In this document: piece by piece, positions 3,051 through 41,984 of the stretch
Layout: every line of letters starts with the position of its first letter
Numbering within the stretch: position 1 is the first letter of the stretch
Assembly (NCBI GenBank): GCA_030616605.1
Contig: JAUWWY010000001.1
Coordinates: 198,251-240,375, forward strand
DNA: 42,125 bases
Direction of reading: 5' to 3'
Source: a bacterium
Lineage (GTDB): Bacteria > Patescibacteriota > Minisyncoccia > Minisyncoccales > CG1-02-41-26
Program-made: the position numbers and the translations under genes
The notes under the pieces: generated by a model
The model's database searches: none
What the model saw: the letters and a program-made list of their open reading frames with translations, nothing else
Told to the model about the DNA's origin: nothing

Positions 3051-4484
3051 ATGAATCGTTCTTCTAATAAAGCTTTAATTGCTTATATTCCCGAGTTTCT
3101 TGAATATTATAAATCAGAAAGACACTCTTCAATAAAAACCATAGAAAGCTATAAAAGACTTTTAAAACGTTTTGTGATTTGGCTTAAAAGAATTTCTCGC
3201 AAAAATTTATTACCAGAAGAGTTATCTGAAGAAATTATTAAGGAATATAAGAATCATTTATCTAAACAACCAATAAGCAAAATCACTCAAAATCTTTATT
3301 TAACAGGTATCCGGGCTTTACTTTTATATTTTATTGAAAAAGATATCATCTCTTTACATCCTAGTAAAGTAAAACTATTAAAATGCGGAAAATCTATTTC
3401 TAAAGAACCTCTAAGTTCTAATCAATTAGAGAAATTACTTCAAAGTCCGAAAACTTCTACTATTACAGGACTTAGAGATAGGGCTCTTTTAGAAACTTTA
3501 ATTTCTACTGGTTTAAAACTAGAAAAAATAGCAAGTCTTAATCAAGATGAAATAAAACTTAAACCGCACACTAAAACATTAGAATTAAAGATTTCTATAA
3601 ATAAAGGATATCCTTACTATATCACGGTTTATCCTTCAGAAGACGCGATAAATTGGTTAAAAAGATATCTCCAAATACGTACCGATAAATCAAGTGCGCT
3701 ATTCATACGCTATAAAGGGCCAAAGAATGCCCCCCTACGTTTAACTGGACGTTCTATAGAAAATATTGTTAAAAGATATCAAAAAAAAGCTAATTTACCT
3801 TCCTGGCTTACTCCTGAAACCTTACGAGATGCCTACGTTTTCAATCTTTTAAGACGAGAGGATGAAATTAAAATAATTCAAGAAACTCCAACCCATAAAA
3901 GTTTAAGAGTTAATGCTTACAAATTTTCTCCTTCTGAAAATCACTACTTTAAAGAAGATACAAAGATATCTCAATCTCTTCCTTGGCATACTGCTGAAAA
4001 TATTATCAATAAAGAAATCCTATGGCTTAAACAAAATCTCTTAATTTTACCTCAGAGTTATAAACAAAAACAATCATTAATTAATTGTGATGACTGTCTT
4101 TTAAGAAAAATTGCAATTTTAATAGTAGGTGGAAAATTGAAAGCTATAAAATTTAAAGCTAAAGAAGGTAAAGATTTATGGAATGACTTAATAAGAAAAC
4201 AAGAAAATTTACTAAAAATAAGTAAACATGGTGAAGAGTGGCACAGAAATATAATGAATGTAATTTCTATTTATTTTAAAGCAAAAAATTATAAAGTAAT
4301 CATAGAGCCAATTTTAAATTATGGCCGAGCAGATTTAGGAATTTATTCAAACCCTAAAGAAAATCTTTATGTCGAAGTGGGAACAGTCTCTCTATATAAA
4401 CTCTGGTATAACTTTTTGACAATGAAGAACGTTAGCTTCTTACTCGTTCCTTTCGAAGATTACGCAATAGAATTTAGAACTTAA
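3051..4484 (+). CDS. Tyrosine-recombinase-like protein with partly degenerate catalytic residues, fused to a ~150-aa C-terminal PD-(D/E)xK-like (restriction-endonuclease-fold) domain
   Basis: N-terminal SAM-like core-binding region (EFLEYYKSERHSSIKTIESYKRLLKRF). Catalytic box I Arg is in LRDRALLETLISTGLK. The box II equivalent is TPETLRDAY (Arg kept, flanking His residues replaced). HKSLRVNAY is the His...Tyr nucleophile region. The C-terminal segment HGEEWH...VIIEP...GRADLGIY...LYVEVGT resembles the E / D / ExK-type nuclease core. Confidence 0.7.
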   Translation: MNRSSNKALIAYIPEFLEYYKSERHSSIKTIESYKRLLKRFVIWLKRISRKNLLPEELSEEIIKEYKNHLSKQPISKITQNLYLTGIRALLLYFIEKDIISLHPSKVKLLKCGKSISKEPLSSNQLEKLLQSPKTSTITGLRDRALLETLISTGLKLEKIASLNQDEIKLKPHTKTLELKISINKGYPYYITVYPSEDAINWLKRYLQIRTDKSSALFIRYKGPKNAPLRLTGRSIENIVKRYQKKANLPSWLTPETLRDAYVFNLLRREDEIKIIQETPTHKSLRVNAYKFSPSENHYFKEDTKISQSLPWHTAENIINKEILWLKQNLLILPQSYKQKQSLINCDDCLLRKIAILIVGGKLKAIKFKAKEGKDLWNDLIRKQENLLKISKHGEEWHRNIMNVISIYFKAKNYKVIIEPILNYGRADLGIYSNPKENLYVEVGTVSLYKLWYNFLTMKNVSFLLVPFEDYAIEFRT

Positions 4485-4490
4485 AAATTT

Positions 4491-5447
4491 ATGGAAAATA
4501 AAAAGAAAAATATACAACTCCCCTGTTTAGATGATTTTCTTTTAAATTTGCAATCTAATAATTATTCCAAAGAAACAATTTATAATTATGAAAGAGATTT
4601 AAATGTTTTTGAAGAATTTTTGAAAGATTTAAATATAAACTTTGATAAAGTAGACAAGAAAACTATTCTAAATTATAAAGCTTACCTAACTTCTCAAGAC
4701 AGAAAAACTCCAAAATCAGAAACCGGATTAAAAAAACTAAGCAGTTTCTCCATAAACAGAATGTTATCTTCGCTTCGTTCGTATTTAAAATTTTTAATAG
4801 ATATGGATTATAAAAGTCCGATTTCTCCAGATACAGTGAAACTGGTAAAAACTGAAAGAAAAAATCCTCGAATTTCTGAATTTAAAGAAATAGTAAAGAT
4901 AATTGAATCTCCAATGCAATTTGAGAAAAATGAGAGGATTGCTTTAAGAAACCGGGCAATGTTTGAAATATTATTTTCTACCGGTGTAAGAATTTCTGAA
5001 CTTATAAATATTAAAAGTAGTGATATTGATAAAACCGGACGAATATTTATTATGGGCAAGGGTAAAAAAGAAAGATTTGCTTATTTAACGTCAAGAGCTA
5101 AAAAACATTTAAAAAATTATTTGGAAGTTCGCGAAGAAATAGATTCTCCTTATCTTTTTATCCCTTATCGCGGAAAGAATATTCATATTAAAAATAAAAA
5201 AATTTCTCCTAATTATTTACAAGAGAAAATTAAAAAATACCGGGAATTACTAGGAATTAACCTCCCTATTTCTTGTCATTCCATCCGCCATGCATTTGCA
5301 ACTTATTTAGCGGAAAGCGGCGCAAATCCAGCCGCAATTCAAATTCTTCTGGGCCATGAATCTTTAGATACAACTACTCGCTATGTCCACGCTTCTGACC
5401 GTTATGCTGAAAGAATTCATCGTAAATATCATCCATTAAAAGAATAA
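4491..5447 (+). CDS. Canonical XerC/XerD-family tyrosine recombinase
   Basis: RNRAMFEILFSTGVRISEL (Arg I), HSIRHAFATYL (H-x-x-R), LLGHESLDTTTRYVH (His and Tyr nucleophile). Confidence 0.9.
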   Translation: MENKKKNIQLPCLDDFLLNLQSNNYSKETIYNYERDLNVFEEFLKDLNINFDKVDKKTILNYKAYLTSQDRKTPKSETGLKKLSSFSINRMLSSLRSYLKFLIDMDYKSPISPDTVKLVKTERKNPRISEFKEIVKIIESPMQFEKNERIALRNRAMFEILFSTGVRISELINIKSSDIDKTGRIFIMGKGKKERFAYLTSRAKKHLKNYLEVREEIDSPYLFIPYRGKNIHIKNKKISPNYLQEKIKKYRELLGINLPISCHSIRHAFATYLAESGANPAAIQILLGHESLDTTTRYVHASDRYAERIHRKYHPLKE

Positions 5448-32433: not shown

Positions 32434-33839
<1,406 letters not shown>

Positions 33840-33847
<8 letters not shown>

Positions 33848-34901
33848 CTTTCCACCATTTATCAGAAAATTTTTCTTTTAAGATTTTATCCCCTTCTCCG
33901 GGCGGAGTAAGTTTTAATTTTCTAAAATCAGCATCTATCATTATCTTAATTAACTCATCAAATTTTATTTTTGGCTGCCAGTTAAGTTTTTCTTTGGCTT
34001 TAGAAATATCACCGACTAAATTCTCAGCTTCAGCCGGACGGAAATAGCGAGGGTCAGTCTCAACATATTTCTGCCAATCACCCAAACCCGCATAATTAAA
34101 AGCTTTTTCTAAAAACTCTTTTACTGAATGACTTTCTCCTGTTGCTATCACATAGTCATCTGCTTTTTCCTGCTGAAGCATTAAGTGCATTACCACAACG
34201 TATTCCTGGGTAAGACCCCAATCTCTTTTTGCTTCTAAATTTCCCATGTACAGTTTTTCATCCAGACCGGCCTTTATACTGGCGACTCCTCTTGTAATTT
34301 TTCTGGTAACAAACGTTGGTCCTCTTCTGGTTCCTTCATGATTGAATAAAATTCCATTACAGGCAAAAATATTATACGCTTCCCTGTACAACCGGGTTAT
34401 ATGATAACTGAAAACCTTGGCGCAGGCATAAGGGCTTCTTGGATGAAAAGGAGTTTTTTCATTTTGTGGAGGCGGAGACGAACCGAACATTTCACTGGAA
34501 GCAGCCATATAAAATTTTATCGGCAAGCCAGAGTTCTTAATTGCTTCAAGTATTCTTAAGGTTCCTAAAGCATCAGTGTTACAGGTGTATTCAGGCATAT
34601 CAAAACTGACCCTGACATGAGACATAGCAGCCAAGTGATAAATTTCATCGGGCTTAATCTCTTTTATCAGTCTTTCAATACTACCTGTATCAGTCATATC
34701 GCCATAATGCAAATGAAGTCTCACACCGTGAATATGAGGATCCTTATAAAGATGGTCAATCCTTTCTGTCAGAAAAACGCTGTCCCACCTTATAATCCCG
34801 TGAACATCATAACCTTTGTTTAATAAAAGCTCGGCTAAATATGAACCGTCCTGTCCGGCAATTCCCGAAATCAAAGCAGTTTTTGTTTTTTCTTGATTCA
34901 T
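33840..34901 (-). CDS. gmd: GDP-mannose 4,6-dehydratase
   Basis: [65 protein letters not shown]. Confidence 0.95.
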
Positions 34902-34923
34902 ATAATTTTAATTTAGTAATTTT

Positions 34924-34951
34924 ATTATAATATTTTTAGAGAATAAAACAA
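34924..34951 (-). promoter_or_regulatory. Candidate promoter of the gmd operon
   Basis: On the - strand: TTGTTT (34951-34946), 16-nt spacer, TATAAT (34929-34924), about 22 nt upstream of the gmd ATG. Confidence 0.4.
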
Positions 34952-34960
34952 GAGTAAAAC

Positions 34961-34993
34961 TTGACAGTTTAGTTATCTGTGTTAAAATAACTA
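34961..34993 (+). promoter_or_regulatory. Near-consensus sigma70 promoter of the orphan gene, with an overlapping 7-bp inverted repeat
   Basis: TTGACA (34961-34966), 16-nt spacer, TGt-TAAAAT (34980-34988). The inverted repeat TAGTTAT (34970-34976) / ATAACTA (34987-34993) straddles the -10. GGAGG at 35025-35029 lies 5 nt before the ATG. Confidence 0.6.
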
Positions 34994-35034
34994 GAGTATT
35001 TAAAAATTAAATAATATCAAAAAAGGAGGTAAAG

Positions 35035-35898
35035 ATGTTGGAATTGAAAGATTTTTCAGGAGAAAGAGGAGTCCGACTCTTGACAGTCAGATGCACTAAC
35101 GCCTGGCTTGAAAAAAGTACACTTTTCGTGGAATTAAGTGAAGATAACAAAATCTTTACAAATTCCCGCGAACGCATAACACACTTTGAGTCGATTGAAA
35201 CAAGGTGGTTGCAAAGCCAACTTGCCTCTCAAGACGAAAAAGTGATGATTGCAACTCCTGACCATCCTTTGGAAATTCTCACAGGGGATGTATGTCCGAT
35301 TTTACAAATCGAGGGAGAGGATTATATCCTTTCTTTCTATCGTGACATAATGCCCCAAGGTTGGTTGATTCCCGGAGGTTGTCCTCGTAGTCTGGATGAG
35401 CTGTTAAATCCGAAATTAATTGCGGTCAGGGAAGCTGCCGAGGAAATCCTTATAGGGGATAAGAAAGGAAATATCTACCTGCTCCCCGACTCTAAGATTC
35501 AACTCGAAGCAAACCTGGATGCCTGGAAATTGGAGTCAAGCACGATAATCCCCATCAATATTAAGGAAGTTCCTTTGAAATGGGAAGGTATTACAGCTCT
35601 CGTCATCAGAACAAAGGACAAAGAAACCAGGACAGAAGGCAGTTTTACTGTTGATCCTTTTACAGGGTCAGTAGCCCTGACTCTATATTGGAGAATTGAA
35701 CTTTTTGTCAAACTGTCCGAATTGAAAATATGGGATGGCGAACGCCTACCAGACCGGCCTCTGAACCGACCAGCCAGATTAACCGATAAAAAAGGAAGAA
35801 CAGTAGCTCTCTTTAGTGGAGGAGACAATGTTCTCTCCGCGTCTTGGATGAACCCGGAGACAGGGGCTCGAGCAACACTTCCATTTTCTGACAACTAA
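35035..35898 (+). CDS. Orphan 287-aa protein with a degenerate Nudix-like box; compositionally atypical
   Basis: It has a strong SD and promoter upstream and a terminator downstream. GWLIPGGCPRSLDELLNPKLIAVREAAEEILIG approximates Gx5Ex7REUxEExGU. It is much more G+C-rich than its neighbours. Confidence 0.75.
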   Translation: MLELKDFSGERGVRLLTVRCTNAWLEKSTLFVELSEDNKIFTNSRERITHFESIETRWLQSQLASQDEKVMIATPDHPLEILTGDVCPILQIEGEDYILSFYRDIMPQGWLIPGGCPRSLDELLNPKLIAVREAAEEILIGDKKGNIYLLPDSKIQLEANLDAWKLESSTIIPINIKEVPLKWEGITALVIRTKDKETRTEGSFTVDPFTGSVALTLYWRIELFVKLSELKIWDGERLPDRPLNRPARLTDKKGRTVALFSGGDNVLSASWMNPETGARATLPFSDN

Positions 35899-35911
35899 CT
35901 AAATCAAACAT

Positions 35912-35942
35912 AAAAAAACCGATTCAGATGAATCGGTTTTTT
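35912..35942. terminator. Bidirectional rho-independent terminator between the orphan gene and the convergent flippase gene
   Basis: AAAAAAA-CCGATTC-AGAT-GAATCGG-TTTTTT: a perfect stem flanked by an A-tract and a T-tract. Confidence 0.8.
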
Positions 35943-35953
35943 GTCCTTTTAGA

Positions 35954-37432
35954 TTATTTAATAAAATATCTTAGCACGCTTTTTAAGATAAAGAAAGTGG
36001 GAAAATAAACTAAAATACCAATTAAAATAATATAAATAATATAAAGATTATAAACATCAGGAAAGGAAATTACTAAATACATTATCATGCTAGAGATAAA
36101 AGCTATAATAAAAGTGAAAATTAACTTTAAGTTAACTGGCCGAACACGGGTGAATTTTGAGGTAAATTTAAAAAGTAAAAATAACATTAAAAGCCCGGCT
36201 ATCAAACTAGCTAAAGCAGCACCATAAAGAGAATATTTGGGAATTAAAATCAGGTTTAAAATTACATTGAGAATTGCTCCAAAAAAAACAATCCAAAAAG
36301 CTTTTCTCTGCTGATTTGAAATAACTAATGCGTGACTAAAAGGACTATTCAAAATTCCAATTCCAGCTCCTATTATTAAAATCTGAAAAGCCAGAATAGA
36401 GGGAAAATAGCTTGGGTCATAAACAAGATCAATAATCTTCAGAGCTAAGGCAATACCGCCAATTACTAAAGGGACAGCAATAAAAATCATTATTTCCATG
36501 AAATAATTCCAGCTATTTTGGAATTTTTCTTTTGATTCACCGAAAAATCTGCTCAGGGTAGGAAAAAAGCTTACTGCAATCAAACCAGTGGGAATTAAAG
36601 CAACACCTGCAACTCTTTGAGCAGCATTATACCAACCAGTCTGAGTAATTTGTCCCCAATAACCCATCATTATTGAATCAGTATTAGTGCAAATTGAACT
36701 CATCATCCCACCTAAAGCTAAAGGCCAGGACATTGCTAAAAAATTCCGCCAAACAGCTTTGTTAAAATTTAATCTTAATTGATAAACCTTAAAGTGGAAA
36801 AAAAATAAAATAAAAATTAGGGCAGTAAAAGCAGCAATTAAATAACTTAAACTTAAATTTTTAACCGAAGGAAAGTTAAAAATAACAAAAAAACCAGCAC
36901 CAGTTACCACTAACGCCTGAAGAATCTTTGCCCAAGCTTCGTATTCCATCTTTTGACGGGCTTGAAAAAAAGCATAAATAATTCCCGAAAAACCACTAAC
37001 GACAATATAAATTCCTAAAATCCAGATTACTCCCCGAATCAGAGGGTCAGGAGTAATAAAAAAGGAACCGATACAGATTAAGAGCAAGGTTCCTATGCTT
37101 AAAACAAGTTTTAAAGAAAGAACAGCCGGGAATTCTTTTTCTTTTTCTTTTTCTCTAGCAATTTCTCGAGTAGTAATTGAAGAAATCCCTAAATCAGAAA
37201 AAATAGCAAATAAAGAAACAAAAGCTAAAGCAAAGGTAAATTTTCCATATTCAGTAGCTCCTAAAATTCGAGCAATAAAAATAATCAAAAAGAGTTTCAA
37301 AAACCGAGTTATTCCTTCTGCCACTGCTAACCAAAAGGTATTTTTGGCGACAGTCTGCTTCAATCCTATATTTTGAAGAAAAAAAACTCTCGGATTGGAG
37401 ATAACATTTTTAATTACATTTTTAATATCCAT
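35954..37432 (-). CDS. wzx: Wzx-like oligosaccharide flippase (MOP/polysaccharide biosynthesis protein family)
   Basis: 492 aa with about 12-14 hydrophobic helices and the N-terminal pattern KNTFWLAVAEGITRFLKLFLIIFIARILGATEYGKF typical of the family. Confidence 0.7.
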   Translation of the reverse strand: MDIKNVIKNVISNPRVFFLQNIGLKQTVAKNTFWLAVAEGITRFLKLFLIIFIARILGATEYGKFTFALAFVSLFAIFSDLGISSITTREIAREKEKEKEFPAVLSLKLVLSIGTLLLICIGSFFITPDPLIRGVIWILGIYIVVSGFSGIIYAFFQARQKMEYEAWAKILQALVVTGAGFFVIFNFPSVKNLSLSYLIAAFTALIFILFFFHFKVYQLRLNFNKAVWRNFLAMSWPLALGGMMSSICTNTDSIMMGYWGQITQTGWYNAAQRVAGVALIPTGLIAVSFFPTLSRFFGESKEKFQNSWNYFMEIMIFIAVPLVIGGIALALKIIDLVYDPSYFPSILAFQILIIGAGIGILNSPFSHALVISNQQRKAFWIVFFGAILNVILNLILIPKYSLYGAALASLIAGLLMLFLLFKFTSKFTRVRPVNLKLIFTFIIAFISSMIMYLVISFPDVYNLYIIYIILIGILVYFPTFFILKSVLRYFIK

Positions 37433-39128: not shown

Positions 39129-40250
39129 ATGTATTTTGTCCATCCTCAAATAAAATTTAATATCAAAAATTTAGGAAATTTGCTTTCCTGTTTTTTTAAA
39201 AAAACCAACTTAGAAAGCCTTAAAAAAGTTGAAGAGATGTTTCCGGCAAAGAAAGTATATTTTACTGATATGGGTCGTTCAGCTTTTCGCTTGATTGTTG
39301 AAGAATTGCAACTCCAAAATTCCCAAATCTTGGTTCCTGCTTATATCTGTGATATTTTCTACTCTATTTTTAAACAATATAACATCTTTCCTATTTTTCT
39401 TGATGTTGACAAGCAGACTTTTAATATAAGCTTAGAAGAGATTGAAAAGAAAATTACTTCCCAAACTAAATCAATTTTGATTTGCCATACTTATGGTCTT
39501 CCCTTCAATATTCAAAAAATCAAAGAAAATTATCAGCTCTTAATTATTGAAGATTGCGCTCATAGTTTTGGAGCAAAAAGAGATGGAAAATTCACTGGAA
39601 ATTTCGGAGATGCTGCCTTTTTTAGCTTGTATAAAATCTTCCCTACTCTTAGAGGTGGAATGGTTGTTTTACCTTCCGGAATTTCAAAAAAATTAGCAAA
39701 AACCAGGTTTTCTCCCCGAGATTTTATTACTCTTTTAAATTGCTGTTCTTTTTTTAGTTTTTTGTTTAAAAAATATGCTGGTAAAGTCGCTCCCAAATAT
39801 ATCAAAAAAGAAAAGCTTGAACAAGTTGGGGCTTTAAACAGAGTTTCTTTAAATATTCTTTCCTGGCAGCTTGAAAATTTTGAAAAAAACTTAAAAAAAA
39901 GAAGAGAATTGGCTTTAATTTTTCAGCAGGAATTAAAAAAAATGGGCTTTGAAACCCAGAATTCAGAAAACAATATTTTTACTTTCTTGAGCGCTTTAGT
40001 TCCAGAAAATATAAATCGTGATGAATTTGTTATTGCTTTAAGAAAAAAAGGAGTCTTCCCAACCCGAATCTGGCATACCCCTATAATTTTAAATCCAGAA
40101 GTTCAAAAAGAATATAATATTGATATTTCTAAATTTCCCAATACTATTGATGTTTCCCAAAGAATTATCAATTTCCCTTTGCAAAACTTTTACAGCCAAA
40201 AAGACATCAAAAAGATGCTAAAAAAAATAAAAGAAACATCAGTAGCCTAA
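39129..40250 (+). CDS. DegT/DnrJ/EryC1/StrS-family PLP-dependent aminotransferase-like protein (divergent)
   Basis: GRSAFRLI, ILVPAYICDIF, IEDCAHSFGAKRDGKFTGNFGDAAFFSLYKIFPTLRGGMVV (candidate PLP Lys in SLYK). Confidence 0.65.
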   Translation: MYFVHPQIKFNIKNLGNLLSCFFKKTNLESLKKVEEMFPAKKVYFTDMGRSAFRLIVEELQLQNSQILVPAYICDIFYSIFKQYNIFPIFLDVDKQTFNISLEEIEKKITSQTKSILICHTYGLPFNIQKIKENYQLLIIEDCAHSFGAKRDGKFTGNFGDAAFFSLYKIFPTLRGGMVVLPSGISKKLAKTRFSPRDFITLLNCCSFFSFLFKKYAGKVAPKYIKKEKLEQVGALNRVSLNILSWQLENFEKNLKKRRELALIFQQELKKMGFETQNSENNIFTFLSALVPENINRDEFVIALRKKGVFPTRIWHTPIILNPEVQKEYNIDISKFPNTIDVSQRIINFPLQNFYSQKDIKKMLKKIKETSVA

Positions 40251-41984
40251 AATTTGGTTTATTTTAGAGCGAGTGGAGGAACCGACAAAGCCGGTTCCTT
40301 TTTTAAATCCTAAGGGAGTTAAAATCTGAGAAGCATATTTTTCCTGAAAGCAAATAACAGCAGCTTGCGTTAAGATACCGAAATAGCCGGTTACTAAACC
40401 TTGAGGATAAATCTCTGAACCTTGAGATTTTAAAAACCCTTGTAAACAACTAACTTGATAATTTCTCATTCCAAAATAAAGATTTTGATTGAACTCTTGG
40501 CAGAAAAACTCTCTTCTTTGGCTGAGGATTTGAGCAATTTTTGCTTGAAGCTCGGCAATCTGAGCTAAGAGAACAGCGATTTGAGCCTTAAGTTCTTCAA
40601 TTAATTTTTCTTCTTTGATTTCAATTGAAAGCGAGAGGGAAAAATCAAAAGAAAGTTCCTCGCCGTTAAATCCAAAAATTTTTGATTGAATTGAAGGAAT
40701 TAAAGTTAAAGAACTATAATCTTTACCAAAATCTTCAAAAGAAATCTCTGCTTTTTGATTTTCATCTATTTTCAAAAAATCGACCTGGCAGCTCTGGCTA
40801 TCTTGACAAAGAACATAAGGAAACTGGAATTGGACTTTATCTTCGCCATTAAATTCTAATTTTAACTCCCCTTCTCCTCCTATAATTCTATACCAATTAC
40901 CTGACCATTGCTTTATTGAATAATCTAAAGAAACGCTGGTTTTTTGGGTTGAGGGCAAGAATATTAATGAAGGAATAATTCTAATGTTTTTTAGATTTTC
41001 ATTTTTATAACAATATTCTTCTCCAAATTGGCAATTATTAAGAAATATGGCTATTGTCCAGTCAGTGAAAATCTCTTCAAATTTCTTCTCAACATCATTT
41101 TTCTCCAAAGCATAATTTAAAGAAGGAATTCCAATTTTTGAAGATTGCAAAGAATCAACTAAAATTTCAATTCCATAATGGTCAATTAAATACTGAGTAA
41201 ATATATTGACTATTCCATAATCCTCTTTTTGGTTTTGCCATTCTGTTAAAGAATCAGAGGGCGAAGCAATAAATTGTCTGACTCTTTGCTGGAGATTGCT
41301 TGCCTGATATTCATCATCATAACCAACTAAGGTTGGCGAATAATCAGCTCTGGCTTCATTGAGCCAGATTTCTTCTGGAACTCCTTGAAGCCGTTCTTTT
41401 TGATTGAAAATTATTAAATGGGTAAATTCATGAGCTAAATAGCTTTTGATAATTGATGTTTTAAGATATTCGGCTGAAAGATAAACCATTTCTCTTTCAT
41501 TTGACCTTTGGTTTTGAATTTTTGAATATTCATCGCCATCGTTAAAATAGCCGCCAGCTTCTTCCTTCATTTGATGAAATAAAATCGTAATATGCTCGTC
41601 GCTGTCAATCCCTGGTTTCCATTCTGACCCATAAGTAGCGGTTAATTTCGGATAAATTGTTTGGTCAAATTCCTGGCTGAGAATTTCTAAATTTTGAAAT
41701 ATTTTCTCTTTCTCACCCTCAGTCAAGTTTTTAAACCATTCATCTTCTAAATAAAAATAGCCCTTTTGAGAAACTTTTTTTAAAATAGCTTCTAGTTCTT
41801 CCCTTATCTCTAAGTCATATTGGGAATTAACAAAAAATTTCTTTATTTGCCCCTCGCTGTCAGCAAAAGCAAAAATTGGGAATAAAAAAATTATCAGGAC
41901 TAAAATAAAAATAAATTTTTTACTGAAATTCTTTGCCATAATTTTTTCCATTTTACCATAAAATTTTTTCAAAACAAAAAACAC
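40239..41984 (-). CDS. Secreted MA-clan (HExxH) metallopeptidase-like protein with a coiled-coil linker and a C-terminal PG_binding_1 peptidoglycan-binding domain
   Basis: Signal-like MAKNFSKKFIFILVLIIFLFPIFAFA (the real start is probably 41939 or 41951). AHEFTHLII...WLNEARADY (HExxH plus a downstream Glu). LKAQIAVLLAQIAELQAKIAQ coiled coil. VSCLQGFLKSQG...GYFGILTQAAVICFQEKY. Confidence 0.7.
   Translation of the reverse strand: MFFVLKKFYGKMEKIMAKNFSKKFIFILVLIIFLFPIFAFADSEGQIKKFFVNSQYDLEIREELEAILKKVSQKGYFYLEDEWFKNLTEGEKEKIFQNLEILSQEFDQTIYPKLTATYGSEWKPGIDSDEHITILFHQMKEEAGGYFNDGDEYSKIQNQRSNEREMVYLSAEYLKTSIIKSYLAHEFTHLIIFNQKERLQGVPEEIWLNEARADYSPTLVGYDDEYQASNLQQRVRQFIASPSDSLTEWQNQKEDYGIVNIFTQYLIDHYGIEILVDSLQSSKIGIPSLNYALEKNDVEKKFEEIFTDWTIAIFLNNCQFGEEYCYKNENLKNIRIIPSLIFLPSTQKTSVSLDYSIKQWSGNWYRIIGGEGELKLEFNGEDKVQFQFPYVLCQDSQSCQVDFLKIDENQKAEISFEDFGKDYSSLTLIPSIQSKIFGFNGEELSFDFSLSLSIEIKEEKLIEELKAQIAVLLAQIAELQAKIAQILSQRREFFCQEFNQNLYFGMRNYQVSCLQGFLKSQGSEIYPQGLVTGYFGILTQAAVICFQEKYASQILTPLGFKKGTGFVGSSTRSKINQILGY

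What the first reader, a model, noticed from the sequence alone, without database searches (positions are those of the whole stretch)
34961..35942. Self-contained, compositionally foreign cassette encoding an orphan protein with a degenerate Nudix box, wedged between two glycan operons
Seen in sequence:
- This is the only + strand gene between two long - strand operons.
- It has its own near-consensus promoter (TTGACA, 16 nt, TGtTAAAAT) and a 7-bp inverted repeat straddling the -10 that looks like an operator.
- It has a canonical GGAGG SD 5 nt from the ATG and a perfect bidirectional hairpin terminator.
- My hand counts on two 100-nt samples of the gene give about 41% and 46% G+C. A flippase sample gave about 18% and a gmd sample about 36%.
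- Codons such as CGA, CGC, CCG and GCC are common here and rare elsewhere in the window. The long antisense ORF (35499-35894) is a by-product of this composition.
- The central segment GWLIPGGCPRSLDELLNPKLIAVREAAEEILIG keeps the REUxEE catalytic helix of Nudix hydrolases. However, it has Asp for the first Glu, about 3 extra residues and Leu for the Gly.
- I do not recognise the ~110-aa N-terminal part or the ~140-aa beta-rich C-terminal part.

Inference: this is a horizontally acquired, probably strongly expressed and possibly repressor-controlled single-gene module. It could hydrolyse a nucleotide sugar or another nucleotide-derived molecule (precursor-pool editing next to the GDP-sugar genes). 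Equally, it could be unrelated to the glycan locus, for example defence or signalling.
Basis: partly seen in the sequence, partly recalled or inferred. Interest (0 to 1): 0.75.

Follow-up and report, generated by a model that had tools for sequence, protein, structure and literature searches.

The report
Foreign Nudix-fold gene splitting a glycan operon
A horizontally acquired single gene, with its own promoter and terminator, has been dropped between two genes of a sugar-coat operon in a tiny (CPR-type) bacterium. It encodes a member of an unannotated branch of the Nudix hydrolase superfamily, whose substrate is unknown but is probably a nucleotide-sugar.

Summary
Gene X (35035-35898, +, 287 aa) is the compositional outlier of the window:
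- G+C is 43.8% against 31.4 +/- 2.8%.
- GC3 is 40.6% against 24.7%.
- The synonymous-codon score has z = -7.4.
- The tetranucleotide distance has z = 4.4.

Seven related loci carry wzx and gmd 2-12 nt apart on one strand with no X. X plus its promoter and terminator is therefore a 1,052-bp insertion (34902-35953) that split one operon.

X is real, with dN/dS 0.24 against a 91%-identical copy. It is not an orphan. About 39 cluster representatives share its architecture, and every member with a source label is CPR/Patescibacteria or unclassified. About 450 more distant relatives exist.

The AlphaFold model (pLDDT 92) matches only Nudix structures. The Nudix box is expanded rather than degenerate: G115-x6-E122-x9-R132-E133-x2-E136-E137. 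These residues and a downstream D234-G-E236 are conserved across the superfamily.

X lies directly next to gmd in three lineages whose X proteins are about 40% identical, and in peptidoglycan clusters in three others. About half of the distant relatives are fused to TIR, and a few to SIR2 or DUF4062.

My best reading is an NDP-sugar pyrophosphatase, held at moderate confidence. The proposed operator is not conserved. Expression is untested.

The parts
34902..35953 (.). Inserted cassette (1,052 bp) between the gmd start codon and the wzx stop codon
   Evidence: In L015-L019, L042 and L023, wzx (74-80% identical) is followed after 2-12 nt (overlapping ATGA in L023) by gmd on the same strand, with no X. 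This is also the compositional outlier. No terminal inverted repeats or target-site duplication were found.
34961..34988 (+). Sigma-70-type promoter of X: TTGACA, 16 nt, TG-n-TAAAAT
   Evidence: 11 of 12 matches with an extended -10. Both hexamers and the TG are identical in L001.
34924..34951 (-). Candidate divergent promoter for the gmd half-operon (TTGTTT, 16 nt, TATAAT). This is an inference.
   Evidence: Relaxed scan. It would be needed because the insertion cuts gmd off from the upstream operon. Not tested.
34970..34993 (.). 7-bp inverted repeat around the -10 (the proposed operator). Probably chance.
   Evidence: Present, but both arms are altered in L001.
35025..35029 (+). Shine-Dalgarno GGAGG, 5 nt from the ATG
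   Evidence: Read directly. Conserved in L001.
35035..35898 (+). CDS of X, 287 aa: a Nudix-fold protein of an unannotated family
   Evidence: dN/dS 0.24 against L001. Homologues found. AF2 model pLDDT 91.9. All top Foldseek hits are Nudix proteins.
35035..35262 (+). N-terminal family-specific domain (residues 1-76)
   Evidence: Modelled alone at pLDDT 85.6. No PDB fold match, best E = 4. Distant relatives also align over this part of the profile.
35377..35454 (+). Expanded Nudix box: G115-x6-E122-x9-R132-E133-A-A-E136-E137-I-L-I
   Evidence: Same register in phmmer and hmmsearch against DIPP1 and in hhalign against canonical Nudix proteins. G115, E122, P126, R132, E133, E136 and E137 are conserved in at least 85% of both subgroups.
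35734..35742 (+). D234-G235-E236 motif, a candidate additional metal ligand or catalytic base
   Evidence: Invariant in the close family and at least 85% conserved across 89 modules of the superfamily. The proposed role is an inference from other Nudix enzymes.
35913..35942 (.). Bidirectional intrinsic terminator ending both X and the wzx operon
   Evidence: Perfect 14-bp stem. L001 keeps the hairpin, with changes on both arms of the outer stem. Homology with L001 ends just after it.
35499..35894 (-). Antisense ORF (131 aa), a by-product of composition
   Evidence: Open in L001. The equivalent stretch is only 44-71 aa in several distant homologues.
33840..34901 (-). Flank: gmd (GDP-mannose 4,6-dehydratase), divergent from X
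   Evidence: TIGR01472 scores 488 bits, above its cut-off of 415. 97% identical in L001.
35954..37432 (-). Flank: wzx-type MOP flippase, convergent with X
   Evidence: Pfam Polysacc_synt. Closest relatives are 74-80% identical.

Best explanation
X is a functional cytoplasmic enzyme from a previously unannotated branch of the Nudix superfamily. It has a Nudix alpha/beta/alpha core, a family-specific 76-residue N-terminal domain, a beta-rich insertion, and a Nudix box lengthened by three residues that keeps all metal-binding and catalytic residues. I infer that it uses divalent cations to hydrolyse the pyrophosphate bond of a nucleoside-diphosphate-X compound. The X moiety is most probably a sugar. 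In this locus that would be a GDP-hexose or GDP-6-deoxyhexose of the gmd pathway, giving GMP plus sugar-1-phosphate. The likely role is trimming or recycling the precursor pool in a nucleotide-scavenging organism. The gene arrived by horizontal transfer as a 1,052-bp unit with its own promoter and a bidirectional terminator. It landed exactly between wzx and gmd and split one operon in two.

Shown: the insertion, the foreign composition, purifying selection, the Nudix fold, conservation of the catalytic residues, and recurrent adjacency to gmd.
Inferred: catalysis, the substrate class, the physiological role, and promoter activity.
Stepwise confidence: real gene and inserted cassette about 0.9; Nudix-fold family member about 0.9; catalytically active about 0.7; nucleotide-sugar substrate about 0.4.
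For: Composition and insertion:
- Compositional outlier on every measure.
- Seven relatives have wzx and gmd contiguous without X.
- Both junctions appear in independent assemblies.
- dN/dS is 0.24.

Fold and active site:
- AF2 model pLDDT 91.9, pTM 0.87.
- All top PDB hits are Nudix proteins, as are the named top viral hits. The best PDB hits have probability about 1.0: 2yyh, NUDT7, the NrtR Nudix domain and Ap4A hydrolase. ADP-ribose and NDP-sugar pyrophosphatases appear further down the list.
- Sequence and profile alignments give a consistent Nudix-box register.
- R103, G109, W110, G115, E122, P126, R132, E133, E136, E137 and D234-G-E236 are conserved across 89 modules.

Context:
- X is immediately adjacent to gmd in three lineages whose X proteins are only 39-43% identical, and in three different orientations. 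The window and L001 are divergent, L007 is convergent, and L056 is tandem and apparently co-transcribed.
- X lies within or beside mur/dcw clusters in L002, L008 and L055.
- Rough estimate (inference): with about 10 independent lineages and about 2 in 900 chance of neighbouring gmd, three or more hits has a probability near 1e-6.
Against: - No family model assigns a substrate, and the sequence matches to known Nudix enzymes are weak (E about 0.2-0.3).
- A canonical Nudix gene whose best match is GDP-mannose mannosyl hydrolase already follows gmd, so a second GDP-sugar hydrolase looks partly redundant.
- Four of ten context classes have no envelope genes nearby (L003 type, L009, L053, L054).
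- Glycan loci are hot spots for foreign DNA, which inflates the association.
- Distant relatives point to NAD+/ADP-ribose chemistry rather than GDP-sugars.
- A few family members have K or D in place of a catalytic Glu (P0014, P0017, P0022).
- Expression is not shown.
Confidence: 0.45

Rival explanations
1. X is a conflict or immunity enzyme. It would be the stand-alone version of a Nudix module that elsewhere partners NAD+-cleaving immune effectors. It would hydrolyse NAD+, ADP-ribose or a TIR-made ADP-ribose-derived signal. That could deplete a nucleotide during infection, destroy ADP-ribose so that NAD+ cannot be rebuilt, or switch a signal off. Its place in the glycan locus would then only reflect where foreign DNA lands.
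For: - Profile search finds 452 relatives. Of 111 longer ones scanned, at least 51 carry TIR. Others carry SIR2, DUF4062, class-3 cyclase, caspase, trypsin-like peptidase, PIN or a STAND NTPase.
- Similarity spans nearly the whole module, profile positions about 15-259.
- The fused genes sit among DUF4062-STAND-TPR/WD40 genes, cREC, an integrase and GmrSD_N.
- The gene is mobile, patchy (3 of 185,579 species genomes) and richer in G+C than its host in 12 of 14 loci.
- It is the sole opposite-strand gene in four contexts.
- ADP-ribose-binding Nudix domains (NrtR, TRPM2 NUDT9H) are among the fold hits.
Against: - The CPR clade is only about 20-25% identical to the fused clade and differs at several clade-specific positions, so function need not transfer.
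- No PADLOC model hits X.
- There is no conserved partner gene, and no defence genes are adjacent in the window.
- In L055 and L056 X appears to sit inside envelope operons on the same strand.
- No copy was found on viral contigs, phages or plasmids.
Confidence: 0.25
2. X is a generic house-cleaning or RNA-directed Nudix hydrolase. Possible substrates are dinucleoside polyphosphates, damaged NTPs, CoA or 5' RNA caps/triphosphates. It would have no functional tie to its neighbours.
For: - The best sequence matches are diphosphoinositol-polyphosphate/Ap(n)A hydrolases.
- Fold hits include Ap4A hydrolase, NUDT7 CoA diphosphatase and a decapping effector.
- Some contexts are RNA-related: PNPase/NYN/DksA in L054, upstream of rpoB in L053.
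- L008 has a divergent inositol-monophosphatase/CysQ-family neighbour.
Against: - The recurrent adjacency to gmd and mur clusters is unlikely by chance.
- The family is rare and patchy, which is unlike a housekeeping enzyme.
- All similarity scores to these enzymes are below significance.
Confidence: 0.18
3. X is a non-catalytic Nudix-fold ligand sensor or regulator, like NrtR or the TRPM2 NUDT9H domain. It would bind a nucleotide-sugar and modulate a partner.
For: - NrtR and TRPM2 Nudix domains are among the fold hits.
- Some family members have lost one catalytic Glu.
- The spacing of the box is non-canonical, and Pfam NUDIX does not match.
Against: - R132, E133, E136, E137, E122 and D234-G-E236 are conserved in at least 85% of both subgroups. 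Sensor-only Nudix domains typically lose these residues (general knowledge).
- There is no DNA-binding or other output domain, and no conserved partner gene.
Confidence: 0.08
4. Artefact: a chimeric assembly or a decaying pseudogene.
For: The composition jumps sharply at both ends.
Against: - The gmd-X junction appears in L001 and in contigs of two further runs.
- The X-wzx junction appears in an independent run.
- The frame is intact, dN/dS is 0.24, and the family is conserved.
Confidence: 0.02

Closest known systems
Nudix hydrolase superfamily (Pfam PF00293; MutT, ADP-ribose pyrophosphatase, Ap4A hydrolase, DIPP, NUDT7)
   Same: The predicted fold is the same. The RE-x2-EE catalytic helix is preceded by G...E and by the hydrophobic G-W-x-h-P-G-G strand.
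   Different: - No Pfam or NCBIfam hit even at E = 10.
- Spacing is G-x6-E-x9-RE instead of G-x5-E-x7-RE, with a conserved Pro in the longer loop.
- The Gly after EE is replaced by Leu/Ile.
- There is an extra 76-residue N-terminal domain with no fold match.
- There is a roughly 60-residue beta-rich insertion and a conserved DGE motif.
GDP-mannose mannosyl hydrolase Gmm/WcaH/NudD and GDP-mannose pyrophosphatase NudK (Nudix enzymes tied to gmd clusters or GDP-sugars)
   Same: A Nudix protein encoded beside gmd, fcl-like and manC-like genes. This is the classical arrangement of the E. coli colanic-acid cluster (general knowledge).
   Different: X does not match the Gmm model. The neighbouring 154-aa canonical Nudix (33383-33847) does, as its best but sub-threshold hit. 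X is twice as long and belongs to a different clade. Its chemistry (C1-O or P-O-P cleavage) is unknown.
ADP-ribose-directed Nudix domains in NAD+ conflict systems (NrtR sensors, phage NudE and NadM-type Nudix; Iyer et al. 2022, PMC9503650; Kaur et al. 2020, PMC7159879)
   Same: Distant relatives of X are fused to the NAD+-cleaving domains TIR, SIR2 and DUF4062 and lie in conflict-type neighbourhoods. The literature already links Nudix domains in general to such systems.
   Different: - I found no description of this particular clade or of TIR-Nudix/SIR2-Nudix fusions in the searchable library.
- PADLOC models cover only the partner domains.
- X itself is stand-alone, and its labelled close relatives are CPR or unclassified.

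Membership tests
Nudix superfamily | Nudix alpha/beta/alpha sandwich fold | tested here: met
   The AF2 model (pLDDT 91.9) gives only Nudix proteins among the top 50 PDB hits and the named top viral hits, with probabilities up to 1.00. TM-scores are low (0.4-0.5 on the target) because of the extra elements.
Nudix superfamily | Catalytic helix RE-U-x-EE with an upstream G...E | tested here: met
   R132-E133-A-A-E136-E137, G115 and E122 are invariant or nearly so in the close family and at least 85% conserved in 89 superfamily modules.
Nudix superfamily | Canonical 23-residue box G-x5-E-x7-RE-U-x-EE-x-G-U | tested here: not met
   Spacing is x6 and x9, three extra residues in all. The final Gly is Leu139.
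Nudix superfamily | Match to Pfam PF00293 or an NCBIfam Nudix model at the curated threshold | tested here: not met
   No family reported even at E<=10. hhalign of the superfamily module against four canonical Nudix proteins gives E = 6e-4 over 50 columns.
Nudix superfamily | Divalent-cation-dependent hydrolysis of a nucleoside-diphosphate-X | not testable with these tools
   Needs an enzyme assay.
GDP-mannose mannosyl hydrolase (Gmm/WcaH) | Match to NCBIfam PRK15434 and a length of about 160 aa | tested here: not met
   X has no NCBIfam hit and is 287 aa long. The adjacent ORF 33383-33847 has this model as its best hit, below the cut-off.
ADP-ribose / NDP-sugar pyrophosphatase subfamily | Conserved Pro about 16 residues after the Nudix box. 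This motif is recalled from the literature (Dunn et al. 1999), so it is a lead and not a curated test. | tested here: not met
   The only nearby Pro is P151, about 11 residues after the box, and that column is not conserved.
Known anti-phage defence systems (PADLOC-DB v2) | Match to a defence-protein HMM | tested here: not met
   No hit for X at E<=10. In fused relatives only the TIR, SIR2 or PDC-S60/S66 parts match.
Mobile cassette with a defined mechanism (IS, MITE, integron cassette, prophage) | Terminal inverted repeats, target-site duplication, attC, or an adjacent recombinase | tested here: not met
   No boundary repeats beyond chance-level matches. No recombinase is adjacent; the nearest lie about 30 kb away at 3051-5447. 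No copy on viral contigs, phages or plasmids.

The most novel reading that the evidence does not exclude
X would be the stand-alone member, in CPR bacteria, of an unrecognised Nudix module that forms the constant half of a large family of single-protein immune effectors (Nudix-TIR, SIR2-Nudix, DUF4062-, caspase-, PIN- and STAND-linked). The module would recognise and cleave an ADP-ribose-type or other NDP-X molecule made during infection. X itself would be a new one-gene defence or an immune-signal-clearing enzyme in ultra-small bacteria.
Probability: 0.2. Interest if true: 0.8.

Novelty: new variant of a known kind. Interest (0 to 1): 0.55.

Why it matters
- It defines a sizeable, unannotated Nudix clade: about 450 representatives at 50% identity, with no Pfam, NCBIfam or PADLOC model and no solved structure. 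The clade has a lengthened but catalytically intact Nudix box.
- In CPR bacteria its repeated position beside gmd and mur genes gives a directly testable hypothesis. CPR bacteria must scavenge nucleotides and devote much of their small genomes to surface glycans. The hypothesis is nucleotide-sugar pool control or GMP/UMP recycling.
- The same module fused to TIR, SIR2 or DUF4062 in other bacteria points to an undescribed family of NAD+-linked immune proteins. One idea is that the Nudix part destroys ADP-ribose so that phages cannot rebuild NAD+. That is inference only.
- The locus is also a clean example of a promoter- and terminator-bearing gene splitting an operon, where the inserted DNA has to supply the new promoter for the downstream half.

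Tried and rejected
- Pfam, NCBIfam, PHROGs and PADLOC scans of X gave nothing usable.
- PDB sequence searches with the single sequence and with the profile gave only sub-significant DIPP hits.
- The N-terminal 76 residues modelled alone have no fold match.
- Operator hypothesis: rejected, because the repeat is not conserved in L001.
- Antisense ORF as a gene: rejected.
- Phage, plasmid or viral origin: no matches.
- Boundary repeats or a target-site duplication: none.
- tRNA or Rfam elements as integration landmarks: none in the window.
- Metatranscriptome evidence: the RNA runs listed hold none of the sequence.
- Naming or taxonomy of the fused relatives: cluster look-ups gave only 'hypothetical protein'.
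- Literature: no description of this clade or of TIR/SIR2-Nudix fusions was found. One search was malformed.
Full report
**1. What is in the sequence.**
The ORF 35035-35898 (+, 287 aa) is preceded by a near-consensus promoter: TTGACA at 34961, a 16-nt spacer, and a TG-extended TAAAAT ending at 34988 (11 of 12 matches). GGAGG lies 5 nt before the ATG. A perfect 14-bp hairpin with A and T runs on both sides follows at 35913-35942 and is called on both strands. X is the only + strand ORF of 100 aa or more between 12658 and 39120.

Its composition is foreign on every measure:
- G+C is 43.8%, against a mean of 31.4% (sd 2.8) for the 40 other ORFs.
- GC3 is 40.6% against 24.7%.
- The synonymous-codon likelihood is the least typical of 41 ORFs (z = -7.35).
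- The 1-kb window 35001-36000 has the largest tetranucleotide distance in the contig (z = 4.4).
- CGA, CGC, CCG, GCC, CTC and CTG are 2- to 5-fold enriched.

That ORF is 31.2% overall.

**2. It is an insertion that split an operon.**
I fetched 38 loci that encode relatives of the flippase. Seven of them (L015-L019, L042, L023; wzx 74-80% identical) carry the order manC-like, epimerase, wzx, gmd, (Nudix), fcl-like on one strand. In these the wzx stop lies 2-12 nt from the gmd ATG, and in L023 the two overlap as ATGA. None contains X. The 1,052 bp from 34902 to 35953 are therefore an insertion.

A 91%-identical copy of X (L001, from a different sample) shares gmd (97% aa), the intergenic region, X and the hairpin. 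Homology stops just after the hairpin, where L001 continues into asparagine synthase and glycosyltransferases instead of wzx. Contigs of further public runs span the gmd-X junction. One joins the terminator to the end of wzx with a 37-nt L001-like insert. The arrangement is therefore not an assembly chimera.

Between the window and L001, X has dS 0.21 and dN/dS 0.24, against 0.07 for gmd. X is a constrained gene. The promoter hexamers, the SD and the hairpin are conserved, and the hairpin has changes on both arms of its outer stem. The 7-bp 'operator' is not conserved.

No terminal repeats, target duplication or nearby recombinase explain the insertion. Recombination within the variable glycan locus is the likely route (inference). 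Because relatives have no spacer before gmd, the promoter now needed for the gmd half-operon must lie in the inserted DNA. A candidate is TTGTTT, 16 nt, TATAAT at 34951-34924 (inference).

**3. The protein is not an orphan.**
The word-indexed search found 13 relatives, 39-91% identical. The labelled ones are Candidatus Nealsonbacteria or an unclassified 'bacterium'. An exhaustive profile search of 1.84 billion representatives found 452 at E<=1e-3, 136 at E<=1e-10, and 39 at E<=1e-30. Most of the 39 are full-length proteins of about 280-320 aa. The family is rare. Only 3 of 185,579 species genomes hold it: a Saccharibacteria MAG, a Nealsonbacteria MAG and an unclassified MAG. It was not found in viral contigs, phages or plasmids.

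Homologues are richer in G+C than their host loci in 12 of 14 loci, by 3 to 13 points. Two show no offset. The window and L001 show the largest offset. This fits repeated transfer and a relatively recent arrival here.

**4. Fold and active site.**
AlphaFold2 on the 14-sequence alignment gives pLDDT 91.9 and pTM 0.87. Foldseek against the PDB returns only Nudix proteins in the top 50, and the named top hits in BFVD are also Nudix proteins. The best hits include 2yyh, NUDT7, the NrtR Nudix domain with ADP-ribose and Ap4A hydrolase, at probability about 1. ADP-ribose and NDP-sugar pyrophosphatases, NudC and TRPM2 NUDT9H appear further down.

Four methods give the same register, with a 3-residue insertion:
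- phmmer against the PDB;
- hmmsearch with the family profile against the PDB;
- hhalign against the canonical Nudix of the same window;
- hhalign against four canonical Nudix proteins.

Across 89 full modules from both the CPR clade and the distant clade, these residues are at least 85% conserved in both: R103, P107, G109, W110, G115, E122, P126, R132, E133, E136, E137, D234, G235, E236 and L249. That pattern is what one expects of an active enzyme. The DGE motif is a good candidate for the extra acidic residues that other Nudix enzymes use as a metal ligand or base (inference). A few members have lost one Glu.

Residues 1-76, modelled alone (pLDDT 85.6), match nothing in the PDB, best E = 4. 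The region from about 79 to 280 is the Nudix core with a beta-rich insertion. No solved structure of a close relative exists in the copy searched.

**5. Clues from relatives.**

(a) Within the CPR clade I obtained about ten independent context classes.
- X is the immediate neighbour of gmd in three of them, and their X proteins are only 39-43% identical. The window and L001 are divergent. L007 (Nealsonbacteria) is convergent, with an fcl-like epimerase on the other side. L056 is tandem, downstream of gmd, and followed on the same strand by further sugar-modifying genes.
- Three others lie in or beside the cell-wall cluster. L055 has murL-X-murD-ftsW-murG. L008 has murL...X...murD-ftsW. L002 has mraZ-rsmH-ftsI-X.
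- The rest are varied. The L003 type has Sua5 | X followed by an unknown 323-aa protein. L009 has X before a P-type ATPase, as L002 also does. L054 has comM | X | dksA-type zinc finger. L053 has X before rpoB.
- The gmd-adjacent proteins do not cluster together in the identity matrix, so the association recurs across the family.

(b) In the distant clade (about 20-25% identical, matched over profile positions of about 15-259), at least 51 of 111 proteins scanned carry a TIR domain. Others carry SIR2, DUF4062, class-3 cyclase, caspase, trypsin-like peptidase, PIN, HAD or a STAND NTPase. Their neighbourhoods hold DUF4062-STAND-TPR/WD40 proteins, cREC plus a metallophosphatase, an integrase and GmrSD_N. 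PADLOC recognises only the partner domains.

**6. Mechanism.**
The steps I regard as shown are:
- a real, selected gene;
- a foreign, self-contained insertion;
- a Nudix fold;
- conserved catalytic residues;
- recurrent linkage to gmd and to envelope genes in CPR genomes;
- linkage to NADase domains in distant relatives.

From these I infer metal-dependent cleavage of an NDP-X pyrophosphate. ADP-ribose and GDP-/UDP-sugars are all NDP-sugars, and the corresponding Nudix enzymes are close relatives (general knowledge). 'NDP-sugar pyrophosphatase' is therefore the single class that fits both sets of contexts. For this locus the GDP-hexose/6-deoxyhexose pool is the most likely target (confidence about 0.4-0.45).

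The main rival is an NAD+/ADP-ribose-directed conflict enzyme (about 0.25). Then come a generic house-cleaning or RNA-directed Nudix (about 0.18) and a non-catalytic sensor (about 0.08). A caution for the main reading is that a canonical Nudix, whose best match is GDP-mannose mannosyl hydrolase (below the cut-off), already follows gmd at 33383-33847.

**7. Comparison and novelty.**
X works like a Nudix hydrolase and belongs to the superfamily by fold and catalytic motif. It fails the canonical box spacing and every curated family model. It is not a Gmm, lacks the ADPRase-type downstream proline, is not a known defence protein, and is not a recognisable mobile element (see the membership table). 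I found no paper describing this clade or TIR/SIR2-Nudix fusions. General links between Nudix domains and NAD+ conflict systems are known (PMC9503650, PMC7159879). I rate it a new variant of a known kind.

**8. Limits.**
- Expression is untested.
- The substrate is unassigned.
- The probability estimates for gmd adjacency are rough and assume independent lineages.

Noticed in passing
window 33383-33847 (-): A canonical 154-aa NUDIX gene (Pfam E = 1.6e-13) lies directly downstream of gmd. Its best NCBIfam hit is GDP-mannose mannosyl hydrolase, below the cut-off. It has native low G+C (24.5%). A 50%-identical copy is present in L019, but no match was found in L016-L018.
   Followed up: partly
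window 33840-34901 (-) compared with L015-L019, L042, L023: The window's gmd is only 58-59% identical to the gmd of the closest wzx relatives, whereas the flanking genes are 74-84% identical. It is 84% identical to L023 and 97% to L001. It also has the second-highest G+C in the window (37.9%). gmd itself may therefore have been exchanged in this operon.
   Followed up: partly
L012 8001-9527; L013 7001-8533; L014 5222-7357: Distant relatives of X are fused to TIR or SIR2. They sit among DUF4062-STAND-TPR/WD40 genes, cREC plus a metallophosphatase, an integrase and GmrSD_N. This looks like an undescribed Nudix-TIR/SIR2 family of conflict proteins. In L014 a canonical NUDIX gene follows the SIR2 fusion.
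   Followed up: partly
L003 9044-10015 (and L004, L005, L006): In the L003-L006 loci, whose gene order matches the Saccharibacteria MAG L010, X is followed on the same strand by a conserved 316-336-aa protein with no significant Pfam hit. It could be a partner gene.
   Followed up: partly
window 3051-4484 and 4491-5447 (+): Two tandem tyrosine-recombinase (phage-integrase family) genes follow murG, gltX and a 115-aa ORF. They may be Xer-like or may mark a mobile element.
   Followed up: no
window 40239-41984 (-): A 581-aa ORF at the end of the glycan locus has no Pfam hit at E<=1e-5.
   Followed up: no
window 35942-35948 (run X1): A contig from another metagenome joins X's terminator to the end of wzx with 37 extra nucleotides that resemble the post-terminator sequence of L001. 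This suggests a recombination-prone junction.
   Followed up: partly
L056 2028-2504: The ORF after X is labelled Polysacc_synt_C in the precomputed table. To my reading it looks like a small cupin-type sugar isomerase. Its called start overlaps X by 54 nt.
   Followed up: no
L002 8067-10670; L009 2623-5238: In two lineages X lies immediately upstream of a P-type cation ATPase on the same strand.
   Followed up: no
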